NCBI GenBank assembly: GCA_951406725.2 | Contig: OX597816.1 | Coordinates: 6,510,001-6,574,000, forward strand | Length of the DNA stretch: 64,000 nucleotides | Source: Octopus vulgaris | Taxonomy: Eukaryota | Direction of reading: 5' to 3' | In this document: one piece after another, positions 1 through 59,932 of the stretch | Layout of the letters: every line of letters begins with the position of its first letter | How positions within the stretch are numbered: the first letter of the stretch is position 1 | Notes under the pieces: generated by a model | Told to the model about the DNA's origin: nothing | Seen by the model: the letters and a program-made list of their open reading frames with translations, nothing else | Database searches by the model: none | Made by a program: the position numbers and the translations under genes

Positions 1-853
1 TTGCACAACCCGAGAATTGGCAGAAAGCCTCAACCTATCAAAATCCGTCTTTCATGAACACCTGGTAAAGCTTGGGTACACAAATCACTACGATGTTTGG
101 GTACCACATGAGTTGAGTGAGAAGAACCTTTTGGATCGCATTTCCATCTGTGATTCGCTTTATAAACGGAATGAAAACGTGCTTTTTTTAAAGCAAAGTA
201 TGACAGGTGATGAGAAATAGATTAACCTACCGAAATGTTCAGAGAAAGCGATCTTGGTGTAAGCGACATGAGCCACCCTTAGCCACCCCAAAAGCGAGTC
301 TTCACCCTAAAATAGTCTTGCTTTATGTCTGGTGGGATTGGAAAGGAATTCTGTATTATGAGCTTCTCCCAAGTAACCAGACAGTTCTGTGAAATATTGC
401 ACACAACTGCACAAGTTAAAAGCAGCAATCCCTGAGTAACGTCCAGAATTGGCAAGCAGGAAGGGTGTTGTTTTCCAACATGATAACACAAGACCGCACG
501 TTTCTTTGGGAACAAGACAAAAATTGCTGCAACTCGGCTGGGATGTGTTACCTCACCCTCCATATTCACCAGATATTGCTCCTTCGGGTTTCCACTTATT
601 CAGGTCTCTGCAGAATAGTCTTAATGGTAAAAATTTCAATTCCATGGATGACGTAAAAAGATACCTTGATGAATTCTTTGCCATGAAACCACCTCAATTC
701 TGGGAAGAGGGTATTTTCAAGTTAAAGGAAAGATGGAGACGCATTGTGCAACAAAATGGTTCATATTTGGTTGATTAAAAACATAATGGCATGTATTTAT
801 TGACCTTTTTCTTTCCTTTAAAAATCGACACAAACTTTCCGGACAACCCAATA
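1..853 (+). mobile_element. Decayed mariner (DD34D-type) DNA transposon, 3' part with right TIR
   Basis: Broken ORFs 17-220, 207-392 and 449-778 carry the mariner motifs WVPHEL, TGDEK, VWWDWKGILYYELLP, HDNTRPH and HPPYSPDIAPSGFHLF. The element ends in ...aaactttccggacaacccaata, a mariner-type TIR ending in TA. Stops and frameshifts are present. Confidence 0.95.
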
Positions 854-2736: not shown

Positions 2737-4255
2737 CCGTATTTACTCGTGTATAAGTTGCATTTTTTTTTATAATTGATTTTCAGTGAAAAGCTGGAAT
2801 GCCACATCGACGGGACAAAACTGAAACTGTAAAAGAAAACAATTATGCTATCATTAAATACCAAACAGAGGAGCCACATAGAGATGAGTGCGACCTAAAC
2901 ACGAGTGCTATTTGAACCCAAGTGCGACTTATACAAGAGTGCGACTTATACAAGAGTGCGACTTATACAAGAGTGCGACTTATACAAGAGTGCAACTTAT
3001 ACAAGAGTGCGACTTAAACACGAGTGCTATTTAAACCCTATACAAGAGTGTAACTTAAACACGAGTCCTATTTAAACCCGAGTGCAACTTATACAAGAGT
3101 TTCAACTTGAACACGAGTGCTATTTAAACCCAAGTGCGACTTATACATGAGTACGACTTATACAAGAGTGCGACTTATATAAGAGTGCGACTTAAACACG
3201 AGTGCTATTTAAACCCTAGTGCGACTTATACATGAGTACGACTTATACAAGAGTACGACTTAAACACTGGTGCTATTTAAACCCAAGTGCAACTTATACA
3301 TGAATACGACTTATACAAGTGTGCGACTTATACAAGTGTGCTATTTAAACCCAAGTGCGACTTATACATGAATACGACTTATATAAGTGTGCGACTTATA
3401 CATGAATACGACTTATATAAGTGTGCGACTTATACAAGAGCGCTATTTAAACAAGAGTATTATTTAAGCCCAAGTGCAACTAATACAACTTATACAAGAG
3501 TGTAACTTGAACACGAGTCCTATTTAAACCCGAGTGCGACTTATACAAGAGTGCGACTTGAACACGGGTGCTATTTAAACCCAAGTGCAACTAATACATG
3601 AGTACAACTTATACAAGAGTGCGACTTAAACACGAGTCCTTTTAAACCCGAGTGCGACTTATACAAGAGTGAGACTTGAACACGAGTGCTATTTAAACCA
3701 AAGTGCGACTTATACATGAGTACGACTTATACAAGTGGGCGACGTATACAAGAGTGCGATTTATGCATGAGTATTATTTAAAAACGAGTGCCACTTATAC
3801 ATGAATACGACTTGTACACGAGTGCGACTTATGCACGAGTGTTATTTAAACATGAGTGTTTAAATACATGAGTACGACTTATACAAGAGGGCGACTTATG
3901 CACGAGTGTTATTTAAACATGATTGCCACTTATACACGAGTACGACTTGTACACGAGTACGACTTATGCACGAGCGTTATTTAAACATGACTGCCACTTA
4001 TACACGAGTACGACTTGTACACGAGTACGACTTATGCACGAGCGTTATTTAAACACGAGTACCACTTGTACACGAGTACGACTTGTACAAGAGTGCCACT
4101 TATACACGAGTACGACTTGTACACGAGTGCGACTTATGCACGAGTGTTATTTAAACATGATTGCCACTTATACATGATTACGACTTATACACGAGTGCGA
4201 CTTATATACAAGTGTGAATTGAACACGAATGCGTCTTATAAACAAGTAGATAGAG
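2737..4255. mobile_element. Tc2/pogo-like non-autonomous DNA transposon with expanded internal tandem repeat
   Basis: Left end ccgtatttactcgtgtataagttgca. The degenerate right end gcgtcttataaacaagtagatagag|ta resembles its reverse complement. The internal satellite is built from the same motif. Confidence 0.6.
2885..4248. repeat. 17-bp-unit minisatellite (gagtgcgacttatacaa and variants)
   Basis: About 80 units with recurring variants gagtgcgacttatacaa, gagtgcgacttaaacac and gagtgctatttaaaccc. Confidence 0.95.
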
Positions 4256-45082: not shown

Positions 45083-45300
45083 AAAAAGGTGGTAGTAGTA
45101 CCAATAATTGTCGGAGCCCAGGGAACAGTGAGCAAAAATCTGGAGAAGTACGTGGAACAAATAGGGGCTGCAATAAGGGTGGAGCACTTGCAGAAAACAG
45201 CACTGCTTGGAACCGCTCGAATACTACGGAAAGTGCTCGAAAAATAAGGGGTGTTACCTTAGTTCATTGGCAGTGAACAGCTGACACTGTAATACAAATA
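45083..45300 (+). mobile_element. R4/Dong-like LINE 3' end (family C)
   Basis: KVVVVPIIVGAQGTVSKNLEKYVEQIGAAIRVEHLQKTALLGTARILRKVLEK*, then a short UTR and (TAA)n. Confidence 0.85.
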
Positions 45301-45319
45301 ATAATAATAATAATGAGAT

Positions 45320-45433
45320 AAAGAAGAAGAAGAAGAAGAAGAAGAAGAAGAAGAAGAAGAAGAAGAAGAAGAAGAAGAAGAAGAAGAAGAAGAAGAAGAA
45401 GAAGAAGAAGAAGAAGAAGAAGAAGAAGAAGAA
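45320..45433. repeat. (GAA)n microsatellite
   Basis: Read directly from the sequence. Confidence 0.97.
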
Positions 45434-45436
45434 AAT

Positions 45437-45637
45437 GATTTCTATTATAGGCACAAAGCACAGGGAAGATAGTCGATTACAGCGACCCTAGAATGCAACT
45501 AGTACTTAATTTATCGATCCCGAAAGGAAGAAAGGCCAAGTCGACCTCGGCGGAATTTTGAACTCGGAACGTAGCGACTGGCGAAATACCGCTGAGCATT
45601 TCGTCCAGCATGCAAACGATTCTGCCAGCGCGCCGCT
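45437..45637 (-). mobile_element. SINE family M copy
   Basis: Core and head recognisable on the minus strand. Confidence 0.8.
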
Positions 45638-45725
<88 letters not shown>

Positions 45726-45778
45726 TGATGATGATGATGATGATGATGATCATGATGATGATGATGATGATGATGATG

Positions 45779-45835
<57 letters not shown>

Positions 45836-45884
45836 GTAATAATAACAACAACAACAACAACAACAACAATAATAATAATAATAA

Positions 45885-46438
45885 ATGCCCTGATGCAGTA
45901 CCAGGCAGTGGCTCTCATGGCCTCTGATCTTAACTGATTGGAAGTGTTATCATGTACATTGTTTTGTCTTGGTATAAAAGATGGGCTACAGCAAATATTC
46001 TGCTCAATACCACAGATTTGCTTGTCCGTTGTTTGACCGTAACCAGTTGAGCATGTCCCTTAGTGGCTAACGATATGTGCATCTCTGATCACGAGCAGAA
46101 GTAGTGGGAGAGCATCATAGCCATGTGTTGAGAGGGATTCTTTGGGGTTTCAATAATTCACCTCTGGAAACATGGGTGGTTCTTTCAACATCCTTAAACA
46201 ACCCTTATTCAGGGACCTTTTGAGCAGGATGGGCTACTCAACCTGAAGAAAATTCTAACTGGGCCCCACCTGCAAGGTTATGTGCTATTTATCTTGATAT
46301 GAGATCACCATGTCGCGCACATATGGTTGTGTTGCATGTGCCTGGTGTACCCTTATCAGACGGGTAGTCATGATGGGTATACTGGGCTTCGTATATTTTA
46401 CCCGTGTCACTTTGATGGCATGAACTGCTCTCTCACTC
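45885..46438 (+). mobile_element. ~554-bp non-coding element flanked by (TAA)n, copy 1
   Basis: atgccctgatgcagtacc...gctctctcactc with sharp TAA boundaries on both sides. No long ORF or tRNA head is seen. The strand is inferred from its neighbours. Confidence 0.65.
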
Positions 46439-46519
<81 letters not shown>

Positions 46520-46540
46520 AAGAAGAAGAAGAAGAAGAAG

Positions 46541-47273
<733 letters not shown>

Positions 47274-47374
47274 TGATAATAATAATGATAATAATAATAA
47301 TGATGATGATGATGATGATGATGATGATAATAATAATAATAATGAAAATAATAATAATAATAATGATGATAATG

Positions 47375-47405
<31 letters not shown>

Positions 47406-47490
47406 TAATAATAATAATAAATAATAATAATAATAATAATAACAACAACAACAACAACAACAACAACAATAATAATAATAATAATAATAA

Positions 47491-48043
47491 ATGCCCTGAT
47501 GCAGTACCAGGCAGTGGCTCTCATGGCCTCTGATCTTAACTGATTGGAAGTGTTATCATGTACATTGTTTGTCTTGGTATAAAAGATGGGCTACAGCAAA
47601 TATTCTGCTCAATACCACAGATTTGCTTGTCAGTTGTTTGACCGTAACCAGTTGAGCATGTCCCTTAGTGGCTAACGATATGTGCATCTCTGATCACGAG
47701 CAGAAGTAGTGGGAGAGCATCATAGCCATGTGTTGAGAGGGATTCTTTGGGGTTTCAATAATTCACCTCTGGAAACATGGGTGGTTCTTTCAACATCCTT
47801 AAACAACCCTTATTCAGGGACCTTTTGAGCAGGATGGGCTACTCAACCTGAAGAAAATTCTAACTGGGCCCCACCTGCAAGGTTATGTGCTATTTATCTT
47901 GATATGAGATCACCATGTCGCGCACATATGGTTGTGTTGCATGTGCCTGGTGTACCCTTATCAGACGGGTAGTCATGATGGGTATACTGGGCTTCGTATA
48001 TTTTACCCGTGTCACTTTGATGGCATGAACTGCTCTCTCACTC
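47491..48043 (+). mobile_element. ~553-bp non-coding TAA-flanked element, copy 2
   Basis: Nearly identical to 45885-46438. Confidence 0.65.
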
Positions 48044-48103
<60 letters not shown>

Positions 48104-48151
48104 AAGAAGAAGAAGAAGAAGAAGAAGAAGAAGAAGAAGAAGAAGAAGAAG

Positions 48152-48879
<728 letters not shown>

Positions 48880-48906
48880 GATGATGATGATGATGATGAT
48901 GATGAT

Positions 48907-48939
<33 letters not shown>

Positions 48940-49300
48940 AATAATAATAATGATAGTAATAGTGCTGATAATCTATCTATCTATCTACACACACACACAC
49001 ACACACTCAAAGAGTTCAACCAACACAAAGAAAGTATTATTTGACAGGCAAGAACTCTAGTGTTGAAGACAGTCAGCCAACCAACCACCAAGCCAGCCAA
49101 CGAGACAGACAGACACTACTGTGATGGTGATACTGATAAAAAACAAAAATAACAATAATAAGATACTGCTGTGACTACACATAAAACAATATCATTGATG
49201 ATGATGGTGGTGATGGTGATGGTGATGATGATAATGATGATGGTAATGGTGGTGATAATGATGATAGTGATGGTAATGGTGATGATAATAACAATAATAA

Positions 49301-52300
49301 GCCGACTACGGCTGCTATAATGGTACGATTATAATTGTAACGGCAATGATGGCCGTCTCCCCACAAGCCAATCAAAGCTAAAAAATGATAACATTATCGT
49401 AGCACCAAAATGTTTTTGGAAACTAAAAGGAAGACTAAATCAGTATACCAAATCGCTTGTCCTATGGTTAATCTGGAAGCGCGTCCCCCAGGGAAGAGCC
49501 AGCCTGGGATCGAAAAGTCAGCAACTGGCACAAACTCTTCTCCGAATACGGACATGGATGGTCACTTGAACGGGAAATCCCCCAACTCGAGCCCTCCAAG
49601 TTCACCACCACAACCACCACAGAAAGAAAAATGTAAGCGGAACAAATGGACCCGAGAAGAGTATAAAGAAGTAATATACGCTTATTACTATGCATTAGGT
49701 AGGCCATCTCAAGAGAGACACACCGCAAACTCTTACAGTATATGGAGAACACGGAATCAAGACAGTAGGCCCTATTTGGACGAGAACAAATTAGCAAATG
49801 TGAGGAGGGATATCTTTAGAAATAACAGACTCACAGACAGTGAAATAAGCGCGATCAAGCACGCAACGGAAAATGACATAAATATAAGACACAAAGGAAA
49901 TGAAGAATCAGATGAACAGTATAGCCCGCCACGAGGCTTAATTGAAAGACTGCCATCTGACCAAAATACGCAAAGGCCTGAAGATACAAGAAATTCTATT
50001 GTACCAGTTAAAGATAGCCAGGAAAACGAAAAAACAACAGTAACTGAAGATCTCGCATTTGCTGAAGAACACAGAGAGTCTATGGCAGAAATGAGGCAGA
50101 AAATCCTGAATACGCTTGAAGTTGTAAGACATACAAGTATGAATGATAGAGAACCGCTTCATAAACTCTCAAATACAAACCAAAATAAAAAACAAATCCA
50201 AATTGGCAACTATGTAACAAATGAAATAATACGAGAATTAAAACCTGATTTTACTGAGTTAAATGAAATTATTTACGCTTCTGCTAGGGCAATTGAAACC
50301 AGCTGTATGCCCCCGAAAAAACAAAGAAAACAAAACCTGGGAAGAAATCAAACCTGGAGAAGTAAAATTGAAAAAGAGATTGAATTTATGAGAGGGGAAA
50401 TATCAATATTAAATGAACTAATATGTGGAAATGATGTAAGATCCAGAACAGGAAGAAAGATGAAGAGAAAATTTGGATCCTCACCAAGAGAAGAACTGAT
50501 ATCAATAAAAGAAACGCTGAAACAAAAAGTCCAAGCAAAAGCCCAAAGAATACGAAGATTTGAGAAGAGAAACAAGTTTTACAAGCAAAATAAGCTGTTC
50601 ACATCCAATGCCAAAAAATTCTACAGAGAAATAGGGAAGGAGAAAGTAACCGTTAAAGACCCCCCTCCCATGGAAGAAGTTCAAAACTTTTGGAAAAGGA
50701 TTTGGAGTGACAAGAAGACGTACAACATAAATGCAGACTGGATTATACAAACTGAAGGATCCTACCAAAATTTACAACAACAAGCATGGGAAGACATCAC
50801 AATAGCAGACCTAAGAAAGGCACTCACGAAGGCCCATAATTGGAAATCCCCCGGTAAAGAAAGGGTGCCGAATTTCTGGCTCGCATCGCTCCCGTGCGCA
50901 CACGGTAAGCTAGTTCAGCTGCTCAATGGAATTATGAGAGACCCAAAGAAAACACCTGAATGGTTAGCAAGTGGCATTACTTACCTACTCCCAAAGAATA
51001 ACGAAACCAACCTTCCAAAAAACTATCGGCCTATAACCTGTCTATCCACCACGTATAAAATCCTAACATCTATCCTGGCGGAGAAAACATATGCATTCAT
51101 GGAGAAGAACGATATTTTCCCCATTGAACAAAAAGGGTGCCGCCGAGGCTCTTACGGATGCAAAGATCAACTGCTAATCAATCGTATGATCCTTGAGAAC
51201 TGTCACAACAAGCGCAGAAATCTCAGCACCGCATGGATTGACTATAAAAAGGCCTTCGACAGTATACCGCATCCATGGATCTTGAGATCGCTGGACATCT
51301 TCAAAATTTCCCCTGTGATTTCAAACTTCCTGAAGCACAATATGTCGTTGTGGAATACGAATCTCCAATTATACCACTCTAATGGAGTACTTGCCTCAGA
51401 AAATATAAACATCAACTGTGGAATTTTTCAAGGTGACTCACTTTCACCTTTAATATTCTGCATAGCCCTAATACCCCTTACAAGTGAATTAAACAGAACA
51501 GGGTATGGGTATAAAATTGCCAATAAAAAAATAAGCCATCTATTTTATATGGATGACTTAAAACTTTATGGTAAAGACAATAATGAACTTGAAGGCCAAT
51601 TGCGCACCGTGAAAGCATTCAGCGATGACATCGGGATGGAGTTTGGACTTGAGAAGTGTGCCAAGGCCACTTTCCAGAAAGGGAAAGTGAAGACCACAAA
51701 TTCAGTCGTGTTAGATGTTGACACAGTCATAAGAGAGCTTGAGCAAGAACAAACATACAAATATTTAGGGATAAATGAAGGCTCAGGTATTCAGCATGCA
51801 AGCATGAAAGAGAAAATCAGGAAGGAATGTTATAGGAGAGTTCGTGCAGTCCTGAAATCTGAACTAAATGCACGTAACAAGGTGTTAGCTATAAATTCCT
51901 TAGCAGTTCCAGTTGTTACTTATAGCTACAATGTGTTGAACTGGAATATGAGTGAAGTAAAGAATATAGATAGAAAAATACGCAAGCTGCTGAGTTGTAA
52001 TAGGATGCACCACCCAAAGGCAGACGTAGATCGCCTTTACCTTCCCAGAGCCCAAGGAGGTCGAGGCCTGATCCAATTTGAACTAGCTTACAAAACAACC
52101 ACAATTGGACTGGCCAAATATCTCGAAATATCGAATGACTGGATGCTAAAGCTCGTGGAAAATCACGAGAGACGAAAGAAGCTTCATTCTATCATCAAGG
52201 AAAGCAAAAAATTTGCTATTGATCTCGTGCAGGATACCCAAACTGAACAACCCGAGGGAAGTACGGCAACTATTGTTGCAAAGAAGGTGAAAAGGATGGC

Positions 52301-53301
52301 AATGAAAAAAGCGCACGAGCAATTGGCTGATAGGTGGGAGGAGAAACCTCTGCACGGCAAATATGTGACCCGCAGCAAACAAGCTGATGTTGACCAGAAG
52401 CAAACCCATCAGTGGCTGCGGAGCTCAGGGCTAAAAGCAGAGAGCGAAGGTTTCATCCTGGCTGCTCAAGACCAAAGCCTATTAACCCGGAACTACCAGG
52501 CCAATGTGATGAAAAATGGAGCAGACCCAAAATGCCGATTCTGCAACGACATGATTGAAACAGTGGACCACCTAATCTCTGGATGTAAAGTCTTAGCACC
52601 AGTGGAGTATAAATTAAGACATGACAGAGTTGGCCAATATCTCCACTGGCTAATAAGTCGGCATTACAATATCAAAACTGCCGACAAATGGTATAATCAC
52701 CACCCTGAGGCTGTAACTGAAGGAGAAAATGTAACCATTCTGTGGGACTTTCCAGTACATACAGACCGAACCATCAAGGCCAATAAACCAGATATTGTTG
52801 TGAAAGACCAAAACAATAAAGTTTGCTTATTGATCGACATGAGTATCCCCTGTGATCATAATATCTCAGCGAAAGAGTTTGACAAGCTCAGAAAATATAA
52901 AGACCTACTCATTGAAATTGAGAAAATGTGGCATCTCAAGGCGGTTACAATACCAGTGATCGTAGGAGCACTAGGAATGATCAAGAAGGGAACCGAAAAT
53001 TATATGAGAATGATCCCTGGCTTACCATTACTGCAAGAAGTGCAAAAAATTGTCTTAACTGGTACATCACACGTATTGAGAAGAGCATTGTCGATGTGAG
53101 AACTGTTGCTGCTCATGTATTTTAATTTAACTTTAATAAAAAATAAAAAAAATTTAAAAAAATGAACGAACTACTGAGTTTGGTTTAATGGCCTACCAAT
53201 ATACACTATGAGTTTCTTTGCCCTAGGAGTCGGGAAGACACTCGGCAAGAAATGGAAGAAAATTTGAAAGAAGAAAAAAAAAAGTAATAATAATAATAAT
53301 A

Positions 53302-53302
<1 letters not shown>
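49301..53302 (+). mobile_element. Near full-length R4/Dong-like LINE (family A)
   Basis: ORF plus a ~185-bp 3' UTR with a stem (tttctttgcc...ggcaagaaa), an A-rich end and (TAA)n. The 5' boundary is only estimated, from the end of the upstream aataataa. Confidence 0.8.
49410..53099 (+). CDS. Intact non-LTR retrotransposon polyprotein: Myb-like N-terminus, reverse transcriptase, CCHC knuckle, restriction-like endonuclease (R4/Dong type)
   Basis: 1229 aa without interruption. RT motifs NYRPITCL, EQKG, DYKKAFDS, GIFQGDSLSP, FYMDDLKL, YKYLG and GGRGL; knuckle CRFC..ETVDHLISGC; RLE motifs RHD, KPDIVV, LIDMSIP and KYKDL. The true start codon is uncertain. Confidence 0.95.
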   Translation: MFLETKRKTKSVYQIACPMVNLEARPPGKSQPGIEKSATGTNSSPNTDMDGHLNGKSPNSSPPSSPPQPPQKEKCKRNKWTREEYKEVIYAYYYALGRPSQERHTANSYSIWRTRNQDSRPYLDENKLANVRRDIFRNNRLTDSEISAIKHATENDINIRHKGNEESDEQYSPPRGLIERLPSDQNTQRPEDTRNSIVPVKDSQENEKTTVTEDLAFAEEHRESMAEMRQKILNTLEVVRHTSMNDREPLHKLSNTNQNKKQIQIGNYVTNEIIRELKPDFTELNEIIYASARAIETSCMPPKKQRKQNLGRNQTWRSKIEKEIEFMRGEISILNELICGNDVRSRTGRKMKRKFGSSPREELISIKETLKQKVQAKAQRIRRFEKRNKFYKQNKLFTSNAKKFYREIGKEKVTVKDPPPMEEVQNFWKRIWSDKKTYNINADWIIQTEGSYQNLQQQAWEDITIADLRKALTKAHNWKSPGKERVPNFWLASLPCAHGKLVQLLNGIMRDPKKTPEWLASGITYLLPKNNETNLPKNYRPITCLSTTYKILTSILAEKTYAFMEKNDIFPIEQKGCRRGSYGCKDQLLINRMILENCHNKRRNLSTAWIDYKKAFDSIPHPWILRSLDIFKISPVISNFLKHNMSLWNTNLQLYHSNGVLASENININCGIFQGDSLSPLIFCIALIPLTSELNRTGYGYKIANKKISHLFYMDDLKLYGKDNNELEGQLRTVKAFSDDIGMEFGLEKCAKATFQKGKVKTTNSVVLDVDTVIRELEQEQTYKYLGINEGSGIQHASMKEKIRKECYRRVRAVLKSELNARNKVLAINSLAVPVVTYSYNVLNWNMSEVKNIDRKIRKLLSCNRMHHPKADVDRLYLPRAQGGRGLIQFELAYKTTTIGLAKYLEISNDWMLKLVENHERRKKLHSIIKESKKFAIDLVQDTQTEQPEGSTATIVAKKVKRMAMKKAHEQLADRWEEKPLHGKYVTRSKQADVDQKQTHQWLRSSGLKAESEGFILAAQDQSLLTRNYQANVMKNGADPKCRFCNDMIETVDHLISGCKVLAPVEYKLRHDRVGQYLHWLISRHYNIKTADKWYNHHPEAVTEGENVTILWDFPVHTDRTIKANKPDIVVKDQNNKVCLLIDMSIPCDHNISAKEFDKLRKYKDLLIEIEKMWHLKAVTIPVIVGALGMIKKGTENYMRMIPGLPLLQEVQKIVLTGTSHVLRRALSM

Positions 53303-53340
<38 letters not shown>

Positions 53341-54556
53341 GAATGCCTGCAGATGTTTGGTGTTGCTGACAACATCACAAATTTTCTGATGCAATACATA
53401 AAAGAGTGGAAAACCAAATTGTACTCAAGTGATGTATTCCTTGGAGAAATTAATATTAAAAGGGGAATCTTCCAAGGTGGCTCGATTCCTCCGTTACTAT
53501 TTGTAATTGCACTAATACCCATAACAATGACACTTAGGAAAGTTAAGATCGAATCCCGATGTGGGAAGAAAGGCCCATCATTGAACCATCTTCTATTTAT
53601 GGATGACCTGAAATTGTATGGGAAATCTGAAAAACAGATAGATTCCTTAAGCAAAGCAATCCAGAAGTGTGATAGGGACATCGGTATGGAATTTGGGATT
53701 ACCGAATGCTCAGTACTTAATATGAAAGGAGAGAAGAAAGCAGCCAGCAGAGGATTGAGGTTGCCACTAGGAGAGACCATGGGTGAACCCGACGGTAGTG
53801 GGTATAGATATTTAGAGATTTTGGAGTTGGATGACATTCTACACAGAGAAATGAAAGTCAAGGTCAGCGAGGCGTATCAAAAAAGGGGTGAATATGATGT
53901 TGAAATCCAACCTGAGTGCCAAAAATTTTATTACCGCGATGAATATCTGGGCAGTTGCGGTGGTCAGATATAGTGCGTCCATCCTCAAATAGACTAAGGA
54001 GGAAATATCAACACTGGATAGAAGGACGAAATAATTGATTGCTCTGCATGGAGCGCTACACTCTAAAACCAACGTAAACAGACTGTATATGAAAAGAAAG
54101 AATGGTGGCAGAGGACTAATTAGTAGAGACCATTGTATAAAGAGTAAAAGGAGGACGCTTGCCGAGTATTTGATAAATAGTGATGAAGACTTGCTGCAAT
54201 ATGCAGCGAAAGATATTCAGATGAAATGATGGACAAGGAAGAGTTTAACCAAACAGCTGAGGAGAAGAGAAAAGAAGACCTTCTTGAAATGAGAATGCAC
54301 GGATAGTTTGAAAAGAATACACAGGACGTTAAAGATAATACAGCATCGTGGGCATGGTTCGAGCGAGGTGAGTTGAAGCGTACCACCGAAAGCCTGATCA
54401 TTGCTGCACAAGACCAGGCTCTCGCTACCAAATCAGTGAAGTATAACATCTTTAAAACTTCTGACACTCAGAAATGCAGACTCTGTGGAAAGAGTGTGGA
54501 AACTGTGACCCACTTGGTAAGTGGATGTGAGAGCCTTGCACAAAAAGAATACAAGC
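53341..54556 (+). pseudogene. Decayed R4/Dong-like LINE (family D), RT to zinc knuckle
   Basis: GIFQGGSIPPLLF, HLLFMDDLKLYGK, GGRGLI, IIAAQDQAL and CRLCGKSVETVTHLVSGC, with stops and frameshifts. Cut by a SINE fragment at ~54557. Confidence 0.92.
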
Positions 54557-54954
54557 CTGAACTTGTATTTATTTCATCGACCCCGAAAGGGTTAGAGGTA
54601 AAGTCGATCTCAGTGGAAATCGAACCCAGAACGGCAAGTGCCGGAAGATGTCATTATTTTTGGTAACGGTTGTTACCTATGACATTACTACCGTAATTTT
54701 TTTTTTCTGTTGTTGTGTTTCTGGTTATTCCAAAGTACTTTTATTGACGAAGACAACAACTGCAACCATTTTCTTATCTCCCAAAAATCCTTTTTTCTTG
54801 GTTTTTTTTTTTCTTCTTCTCTTACGTTTTCAAAGAATTTTGTTTTTGCTTTTTGGCTTTTTTTTTTTGAAACAGAAAAATAATATTTTTGCCGTAATTC
54901 CTAGAAAGACTCGTGTTTGGTTGTAACAACAAAGGTTGTTGGAAAGAATTAGAC

Positions 54955-59932
<4,978 letters not shown>

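What the first reader, a model, noticed from the sequence alone, without database searches (positions are those of the whole stretch)
49410..53302. Intact, potentially active microsatellite-targeting RT-RLE retrotransposon
Seen: an unbroken 1229-aa ORF with all RT, CCHC and PD-D-K motifs, a Myb-like KWTREEYKEVIYAYYYA segment and a structured 3' UTR ending in (TAA)n, while every other element here is decayed. Known: single-ORF RLE elements (R2, R4, Dong) integrate site-specifically by target-primed reverse transcription, and R2 is being developed for gene insertion. Inference: a young mollusc R4/Dong element, a candidate active mutagen and an uncharacterised RNA-templated integrase.
Basis: partly seen in the sequence, partly recalled or inferred. 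Interest (0 to 1): 0.8.

Follow-up and report, generated by a model that had tools for sequence, protein, structure and literature searches.

The report
Young Dong retrotransposon in TAA repeats
This is an unbroken copy of a young, very abundant jumping-gene family of a known kind (Dong/R4) that sits in TAA repeats, likely in an octopus; the family was likely mobile recently, but this copy carries a change at an almost never-varied enzyme position and may be impaired.

Summary
The 1229-aa ORF (49410-53099, +) is real: RT, CCHC and restriction-like endonuclease motifs match 77 full-length relatives, and the predicted fold is closest to solved R2 proteins. It is a Dong-type (R4 clade) element: single ORF, Myb-like N-terminus without zinc fingers, (TAA)n tail; relatives show (TAA)n at 3' ends (34 of 61) and 5' ends (15 of 21). 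Public runs hold many near-identical copies; this copy differs from the majority at 22 of 3831 bases. Variants shared among copies are mostly silent (19 of 23), pointing to several recent source elements. This copy has 13 private changes, including Asp484 to Glu in RT motif 0 (Asp in 77 of 77 relatives), so it is a doubtful active copy. Expression and current mobility are untested. The class is known: snail Dong targeting TAA, the Dong Myb domain (2021), and 1129 recent Dong-R4 insertions in Octopus vulgaris (2026). This scan noted octopus-like Dong nests on other DNA before. The one addition is a covarying 35-nt 3' hairpin shared across the clade, likely the RT handle. New member of a known kind; interest 0.3.

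The parts
49290..49409 (+). 5' untranslated region shared with other copies; true 5' end not fixed (at or upstream of about 49274-49301)
   Evidence: contigs of runs X4 and X7 match from 49290 and run 16 and 6 letters beyond it; imperfect AAT run at 49286-49300; no HDV-like ribozyme found
49410..53099 (+). single ORF, 1229 aa, RT plus restriction-like endonuclease
49638..49877 (+). Myb/SANT-like four-helix domain (aa 77-156), predicted DNA-binding module
   Evidence: conserved in relatives; AlphaFold pLDDT 90.5; structural neighbours Sap1, Zeste, NgTRF, R2Bm Myb, TRF1 at Z 5.2-6.2, each modest
50841..50879 (+). RT motif 0 (aa 478-490) with the private D484E change (codon 50859-50861)
   Evidence: Asp in 77 of 77 full-length relatives, 283 of 284 fetched proteins, and in all depth of runs X1, X3, X4 at 50861
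50991..51776 (+). reverse transcriptase core (aa 528-789), YMDD at 51546-51557
52533..52586 (+). CCHC zinc knuckle (aa 1042-1059)
52785..52898 (+). restriction-like endonuclease catalytic motif (aa 1126-1163)
   Evidence: motif pattern recalled from R2
53216..53250 (+). conserved 3' UTR hairpin: outer stem, 3-nt 5' bulge, 6-bp inner stem from GG, NGGNN-type loop, 1-nt 3' bulge; likely RT-recognition element
53286..53303 (+). (AAT)6 tail / target repeat, abutting an (ATT)12 run at 53305-53340
46547..47187 (+). 5'-truncated 3' end of a second Dong family (about 60% aa identity) with hairpin and (AAT)18 tail
48158..48810 (+). second copy of that fragment, part of a tandem duplicate (98.6% over 1255 columns); its long AAT array lies upstream of the intact element
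55907..56084 (+). very short 3' end of the second Dong family between AAT arrays
45086..45314 (+). 3' end of a third Dong-like family with (AAT)6 tail
53341..54555 (+). older, frameshifted Dong-like fragment (36-40% aa identity), same strand

Best explanation
This is a full-ORF copy of a young, high-copy Dong-type (R4 clade) non-LTR retrotransposon family that sits in (TAA)n repeats and likely spreads by target-primed reverse transcription, with this copy likely a recent but possibly impaired daughter rather than a proven source element. Shown: single ORF with Myb-like, RT, CCHC and RLE parts; TAA tail; same-strand stacking of six Dong pieces in AAT arrays in the window; many near-identical copies with depth rising toward the 3' end; purifying selection on shared variants. 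Inferred from R2 and Dong literature: the protein binds its own RNA through motifs -1/0 and the 3' hairpin; the Myb domain (no zinc fingers) docks on (TAA)n; the RLE nicks the (TTA)n strand; the freed 3' end pairs with the (UAA)n tail and primes cDNA; early termination gives 5'-truncated copies; every insertion leaves a new TAA tail that is a target for the next, which explains the nests. How the RNA's 5' end is made is open (no ribozyme found).
For: Domain order and motifs. Best sequence and fold matches are R2 proteins (E 4e-28; Foldseek E 1e-34). Relatives: (AAT)4 or more on the sense strand within 450 nt after the ORF in 34 of 61 loci, against 6 of 61 antisense and 3 of 269 flank windows; upstream of the ORF in 15 of 21 (two pairs look like the same locus). 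All Dong hits in the window are on +. Run X3 shows a copy starting at 50656 joined to the AAT tail of the second family (one contig, depth 2.9). 20 runs of 14 studies hold 78-88% of 409 sampled words; 16,618 contig pieces laid in X1; depth rises 5' to 3' (X7: 10.9, 24.7, 86). Shared variants at 10-90%: 4 replacement, 19 silent, p below 1e-7 against neutral; private variants 7 to 5, p 0.08-0.20. Literature: PMC7998251, PMC3812793, PMC13282606.
Against: No tree with named Dong, R4, Rex6, NeSL or HERO sequences could be built, so clade membership rests on anatomy, target and indirect links. The 5' junction of this copy is not a clean (TAA)n edge and is not fixed. No HDV-like ribozyme was found although Bombyx Dong and R4 have one (PMC3774820). 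D to E is conservative, and single motif-0 alanine mutants of R2Bm kept significant TPRT (PMC4117753), so this copy may be fully competent; the private changes could also be assembly errors or marks of a rare lineage. In O. bimaculoides a full-length Dong showed no sign of recent activity (PMC9115989). The Myb fold matches are each of middling Z.
Confidence: 0.88

Rival explanations
1. This very copy is a competent, currently active source element.
For: Unbroken ORF, all RT, CCHC and RLE catalytic residues present, hairpin and tail present, 0.6% from the majority sequence. D484E is the only one of 288 well-conserved columns where the copy departs from both its relatives and the listed majority of its own family. 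One of 284 fetched proteins also has Glu there.
Against: 13 private changes (0.34%) with a near-neutral replacement/silent ratio suggest the copy has aged in place, roughly 0.9 Myr if the octopus rate quoted in PMC13282606 applies; no laid run shows its private alleles at depth, as daughters would. In R2Bm the G408A/D410A double mutant has under 10% TPRT (PMC4117753); single changes in PGPDG cut activity and template jumping (PMC8857657, data not shown there).
Confidence: 0.2
2. The family expanded recently but is now silent or extinct; the copy is a well-preserved fossil.
For: No expression or presence/absence polymorphism was shown here; the O. bimaculoides Dong gave very few non-reference insertions (PMC9115989).
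Against: 7741 of 16,618 pieces in X1 are 99% or more alike; shared variants are under purifying selection; PMC13282606 lists Dong-R4 as the LINE group with most recent insertions in O. vulgaris.
Confidence: 0.3
3. TAA association is passive: tails are made by RT slippage and the element does not choose TAA targets.
For: A 3' tail alone does not show targeting; this copy's 5' flank is an imperfect AAT/GAT run.
Against: Relatives have (AAT)n before their 5' ends in 15 of 21 loci; a 5'-truncated copy begins in another family's AAT tail; copies are polarised.
Confidence: 0.07
4. The lineage moved horizontally between marine invertebrates at some time.
For: RT region 67% and whole protein 55.6% identical to a Penaeus japonicus protein; the element falls in a 100/99 group of 33 rows that holds two P. 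japonicus lineages. Nine coded organism labels hold 78% or more of the words.
Against: Most rows have no host name; a second Dong family in the same window is only about 60% identical, so old parallel lineages could give the same picture; no one-clade test or synonymous-distance test was run; the coded labels may be close relatives or associated samples.
Confidence: 0.3

Closest known systems
Dong elements of the R4 clade (Bombyx mori Dong, DongAg, snail DongBg, ostracod Dong1/Dong2)
   Same: Single ORF RT plus RLE, N-terminal Myb/SANT-like domain without zinc fingers, (TAA)n target (PMC7998251, PMC3812793). Named Pediculus and Sitophilus proteins, species listed in that paper's R4/Dong alignment, are 39% and 38% identical; I could not see its accession numbers.
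   Different: No HDV-like 5' ribozyme detected here, whereas Bombyx Dong self-cleaves at its 5' junction (PMC3774820). The clade-wide 3' hairpin was not found in print by my searches.
Dong-R4 LINEs of Octopus vulgaris and O. bimaculoides repeat libraries
   Same: PMC13282606: 5 families, 1129 recently active insertions, 4.73 Mb (about 4.2 kb each), defined as 2% or less from consensus and 90% or more of its length; this copy (about 4.0 kb or more, 0.6% from the majority) would likely meet that bar. PMC9115989: a full-length Dong consensus in O. bimaculoides.
R2 retrotransposons (R2Bm, R2Tg, turtle R2; PDB 8gh6, 9dou, 9nl2, 9nl3)
   Same: RT-CCHC-RLE core fold (TM 0.53-0.59 by query), motif 0, Myb domain (Z 5.2 to R2Bm 143-214), inferred TPRT.
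   Different: 15-17% identity; no N-terminal CCHH zinc finger (0 of 78 proteins); target is a dispersed microsatellite rather than one 28S rDNA site; short 3' hairpin instead of a large 3' UTR.
R4 of nematodes, Rex6 of fish, EhLINE of Entamoeba
   Same: Named as RLE elements beside Dong in PMC1635306 and PMC7998251; Rex6 also in TAA repeats.
   Different: R4 targets rDNA, EhLINE is not site-specific; no sequences of these were compared here.

Membership tests
RLE-type non-LTR retrotransposon | single ORF with RT followed by CCHC knuckle and C-terminal restriction-like endonuclease, no APE domain | tested here: met
R4/Dong clade | RT phylogeny groups with named Dong, R4, Rex6 | not testable with these tools
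   three homolog searches gave no protein named Dong, R4 or Rex6; the tree holds 50 relatives only, with no outgroup clade
R4/Dong clade | N-terminal Myb/SANT-like domain (PMC7998251) | tested here: met
   conserved motif, confident four-helix model, Myb-type DNA-binding domains among the top structural rows at Z 5.2-6.2, Rap1-Myb cluster at 0.86 (lead only); Pfam finds no Myb family and Foldseek no match under E 0.001
R4/Dong clade | no N-terminal zinc fingers (PMC7998251) | tested here: met
   CCHH pattern in 0 of 78 proteins
Dong | inserted in (TAA)n with fixed polarity | tested here: met
   3' tail in this copy; 34 of 61 3' ends and 15 of 21 5' ends in relatives; 5'-truncated copy joined to an AAT tail. 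This copy's own 5' junction is not resolved
Dong / R4 | HDV-like ribozyme at the 5' end (shown for Bombyx Dong and Ascaris R4, PMC3774820) | tested here: inconclusive
   no Rfam ribozyme; own descriptor found none here and was no better than shuffles on 11 relatives, so it had no working positive control
R2 clade | N-terminal CCHH zinc finger(s) before Myb | tested here: not met
R2 clade | insertion in 28S rDNA | tested here: not met
   flanks are microsatellite and Dong fragments; no rRNA match in 48700-53500
currently active element | full-length transcripts, polymorphic or de novo insertions, TPRT activity | not testable with these tools
   no genome held; only contigs laid

The most novel reading that the evidence does not exclude
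Dong elements are a minimal TPRT machine: one Myb domain alone reads (TAA)n, and a 35-nt bulged hairpin about 40-65 nt before the UAA tail, conserved by covariation across distant Dong lineages, is the whole RNA handle. This family is still jumping in its host from several source copies, so it would be a live microsatellite-seeding mutagen and a compact RNA-templated insertion system different from R2.
Probability: 0.3. Interest if true: 0.55.

Novelty: new member of a known kind. Interest (0 to 1): 0.3.

Why it matters
As a discovery it is ordinary: one of probably many hundreds of recent copies of a described class. It is useful as a reagent. No Dong/R4 protein turned up among solved structures (best hits are R2), and the reviews I searched name no Dong-based platform (0 occurrences of 'Dong' in PMC13580325 and PMC13708176). 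A young family with a confident model, a candidate RNA handle and a simple target makes testable how an RLE element chooses a microsatellite and one of its strands. The copy-level result matters in practice: the common allele, not this copy, is the one to assay first.

Tried and rejected
No whole genome held, so no genome-wide copy count or junction survey. Expression: no RNA holder listed; run X4 is only guessed to be RNA, so its 3594-nt contig is not counted as expression. Summed contig depth is not a copy number; I use it only for 'many copies' and the 3' rise. Reads were laid on 49290-53120 only, so the family's 3' junctions and true 5' end were not seen in reads. Single-protein locus searches found nothing in metagenome or viral contigs; a 23-nt 5' UTR pattern found nothing in viral contigs. 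Rfam: five sub-threshold chance matches here; no ribozyme in 12 relatives. HDV descriptor uninformative: a weak candidate (score 11) appears with the majority base at 49365 but is below many shuffles; rejected. Whole-UTR folding energy not significant; 5' UTR z -1.95, 5 of 200 shuffles, not pursued. Foldseek on the N-terminal domain: nothing under E 0.001. Hairpin descriptor: 25 of 63 regions hit (shuffles 9.3%, antisense 7 of 63); six hits whose inner stem did not begin with GG were dropped before the 19-row alignment, so the covariation counts lean toward the structure; the held-out search is the fairer test. The third Dong family in the window was missed by descriptor and model. Host-gene scan: 150 of 194 frames, only RT, zf-RVT and one transposase fragment. 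Earlier-findings look-ups by place and sequence were blank. Paper searches for a Dong 3' stem-loop or R4-clade mechanism: searches gave nothing on it (62 and 98 returned 0 papers); the library lacks most subscription papers, and Fell et al. 2025 was not held.
Full report
OBSERVATION. The ORF runs from ATG 49410 to TGA 53099 on +, 1229 aa, unbroken. Pfam gives RVT_1 at aa 528-789 (E 3e-29) and a sub-threshold zf-RVT. The five PDB sequence hits are all R2 proteins. A homolog search gave 761 proteins among 7992 scored candidates, the best 50-59% identical over nearly the whole length. In my alignment with 77 full-length relatives the YMDD aspartates, the CCHC ligands, P1127, D1128 and K1159 are conserved in 76-77 rows, D1143 in 70 and K1162 in 74, and the copy has them all; 79 residues precede the Myb tryptophan (median 75 in the 66 relatives that have it), so the ORF is not 5'-truncated. 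The AlphaFold model of aa 69-1229 has mean pLDDT 88.8; its seven best Foldseek matches are R2 structures, then LINE-1 ORF2p and Prp8.

N-TERMINUS. Aa 77-156 form a conserved block (W80 in 65, W112 in 73, R133 in 71 of 77), modelled as four helices at pLDDT 90.5. Against 48,161 chains eight reach Z 5 or more; they include Sap1 (Z 6.2, rmsd 4.8, 77 aligned), Zeste (5.7, 2.9, 67), NgTRF on telomeric DNA (5.4, 4.6, 75), the R2Bm Myb region (5.2, 4.2, 71) and TRF1 (5.2, 3.5, 62), but also an unrelated frog foam protein (5.8). Each Z is middling; the recurrence of Myb-type domains is the evidence. Foldseek and Pfam did not detect it. No CCHH finger pattern occurs in 78 proteins. [quoted passage not shown] So the Myb-like segment is real and already published.

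TARGET. The copy ends in (AAT)6. Five further Dong pieces lie within 45086-56084, and all profile hits are on +. In 99 related loci (79 from the best 80 of 481 confirmed stretches in a partial scan, 20 from genome contigs), 61 had a usable 3' end: 34 show (AAT)4 or more on the sense strand within 450 nt, 6 show (ATT)4, against 3 and 1 of 269 flank windows; 15 of 21 with an N-terminal match have (AAT)n upstream (some loci are duplicates or close kin). In run X3 one low-depth contig joins the 3' end and AAT tail of the window's second Dong family to position 50656 of this element, a 5'-truncated insertion into a tail. TAA targeting by Bombyx, Anopheles and snail Dong is stated in PMC3812793 and PMC1635306 (passages); the primary papers (Xiong and Eickbush 1993; Kojima and Fujiwara 2004) I did not see. 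This copy's 5' end is unresolved: contigs of X4 and X7 match from 49290 without a difference before 49365 and run on 16 and 6 letters.

AGE AND ACTIVITY. Twenty of 24 listed runs, from 14 studies and nine coded organism labels, hold 78-88% of 409 sampled words; one may be the source of the window. Four runs were laid on 49290-53120. X1 gave 16,618 pieces, 7741 of them 99% or more alike. X7, only 1.39 million letters of contigs, covers all 30 bins, with depth 10.9, 24.7 and 86 from 5' to 3', the profile expected of a high-copy family with 5' truncation (inference). Of 39 listed differences, 22 are majority alleles in X1 (0.57% of 3831 bases) and 13 are at 97% or more (private to this copy, 0.34%). 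In the ORF, sites at 10-90% are 4 replacement and 19 silent (p 4e-8 to 4e-10 against a neutral 73-79% replacement), private sites 7 and 5 (p 0.08-0.20); the two classes differ (Fisher p 0.022); three sites under 4% were left out. I read this as several source lineages under selection for protein function, and a copy that has since drifted, about 0.9 Myr at the 0.0036 per Myr rate quoted in PMC13282606, an upper-type estimate since RT and assembly errors count too. One private change is D484E in motif 0 (SPGKERV here): Asp in 77 of 77 full-length relatives, 283 of 284 fetched proteins and all depth of X1, X3 and X4 (X7 has no cover there). In R2Bm the G408A/D410A double mutant keeps nicking but has under 10% TPRT, while single mutants kept significant TPRT (PMC4117753, passages); PMC8857657 (passages) reports lower activity and jumping for single changes in this motif, data not shown. 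So impairment is plausible, not shown. Expression and polymorphism are untested.

3' HAIRPIN. Whole-UTR folding is not better than shuffles. But relatives share a 35-nt element: outer stem, YWA bulge, 6-bp stem from GG, mostly NGGNN loop, one-base bulge. A descriptor hit 25 of 63 regions (shuffles 9.3%, antisense 7 of 63); I kept the 19 whose stem begins with GG, and 18 of these lie 40-66 nt before the AAT tail. On their alignment 92.4% of 198 cells pair, 8 of 11 pairs change on both sides, covariation 0.806 against 0.273 shuffled and at most 0.218 slid; this is partly circular. A covariance model searched over 532,608 bases gave 39 matches to E 10; of 11 non-training matches under E 0.05, 10 are sense-strand 3' ends of Dong-like elements and 9 are followed by an AAT/GAT run within 28-53 nt; one sits at a contig end; by eye only three (L011, L028, L039) come from families unlike the training rows. 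In the window it marks this copy and the three second-family ends and nothing else under E 1; the third family is missed. By analogy with the 3' stem-loop of L2 LINEs (recalled, no call) it is likely the RT handle; untested. Searches found no description of it, in a library that lacks most subscription papers.

RIBOZYME. Bombyx Dong and Ascaris R4 self-cleave at the 5' junction (PMC3774820, passages). I found none here, with a method that also failed on relatives; inconclusive.

HOST AND PRIOR KNOWLEDGE. 'Octopus' is an inference from the microsatellite-rich, SINE-dense sequence (SINE likeness recalled) and from earlier notes of this scan; no call names the organism. PMC13282606 (parts 1-2 of 3 read, supplement searched for 'Dong') lists 5 Dong-R4 families with 1129 recent near-full-length insertions (4.73 Mb) and 51 families covering 92.7 Mb in O. 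vulgaris; its library is on Zenodo and was not seen. PMC9115989 (passages) found a full-length Dong consensus in O. bimaculoides without signs of recent activity. PMC8967140, PMC4640811, PMC5678591, PMC13580325 and PMC13708176 were seen as passages only. A tree of 50 RT regions puts the element among unnamed sequences and two Penaeus japonicus lineages (100/99), apart from insect rows; it has no named Dong or outgroup.

VERDICT. It works like R2 (inferred TPRT) and is, by anatomy and target, a Dong element; the phylogenetic criterion could not be tested. Family recently mobile: likely. This copy active: doubtful (0.2). New member of a known kind, interest 0.3; the hairpin and the allele warning are the useful additions.

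Noticed in passing
window 45640-48914: Tandem duplicate of a unit made of a 554-nt non-coding element (45885-46438, 47491-48043), (AAT)n(AAG)n and a Dong 3' fragment; 98.6% identical over 1255 columns; the second fragment has an in-frame stop that the first lacks.
   Followed up: partly
window 53286-53340: The (AAT)6 tail switches directly to (ATT)12; earlier notes of this scan describe opposite-strand elements that use ATT runs. No such element was identified here.
   Followed up: no
window 45246-45295: Third Dong-like family: a longer 3' hairpin with a TGGCA loop that the model does not score; its loop region resembles by eye the 3' end of the 554-nt non-coding element.
   Followed up: partly
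L010:84-167, L015:1-100, L083:130-240: Dong relatives whose 5' ends begin with a tRNA-like head (L010: Rfam tRNA 30.3 bits, gathering 29; L015 by eye) or a 5S-like stretch (L083, by eye, not found by Rfam): possible Pol III promoter capture or SINEs in the same TAA run.
   Followed up: partly
P0103, P0113, P0213: Dong-like proteins that also carry Pfam PF02338 (an OTU protease family, name recalled).
   Followed up: no
L080-L099: Twenty contigs of bacterial genome records (MAGs and two isolates) encode Dong-like eukaryotic retrotransposons, most likely contamination; one Dehalococcoidia MAG holds nine of them.
   Followed up: no
P0122 (Penaeus japonicus): RT region 67% identical to the window protein; possible old horizontal transfer among marine invertebrates, untested.
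   Followed up: partly
window 204-389: Mariner-type transposase fragment (Pfam Transposase_1, E 1e-16).
   Followed up: no
window 2886-4240: 17-bp minisatellite, about 80 copies.
   Followed up: no
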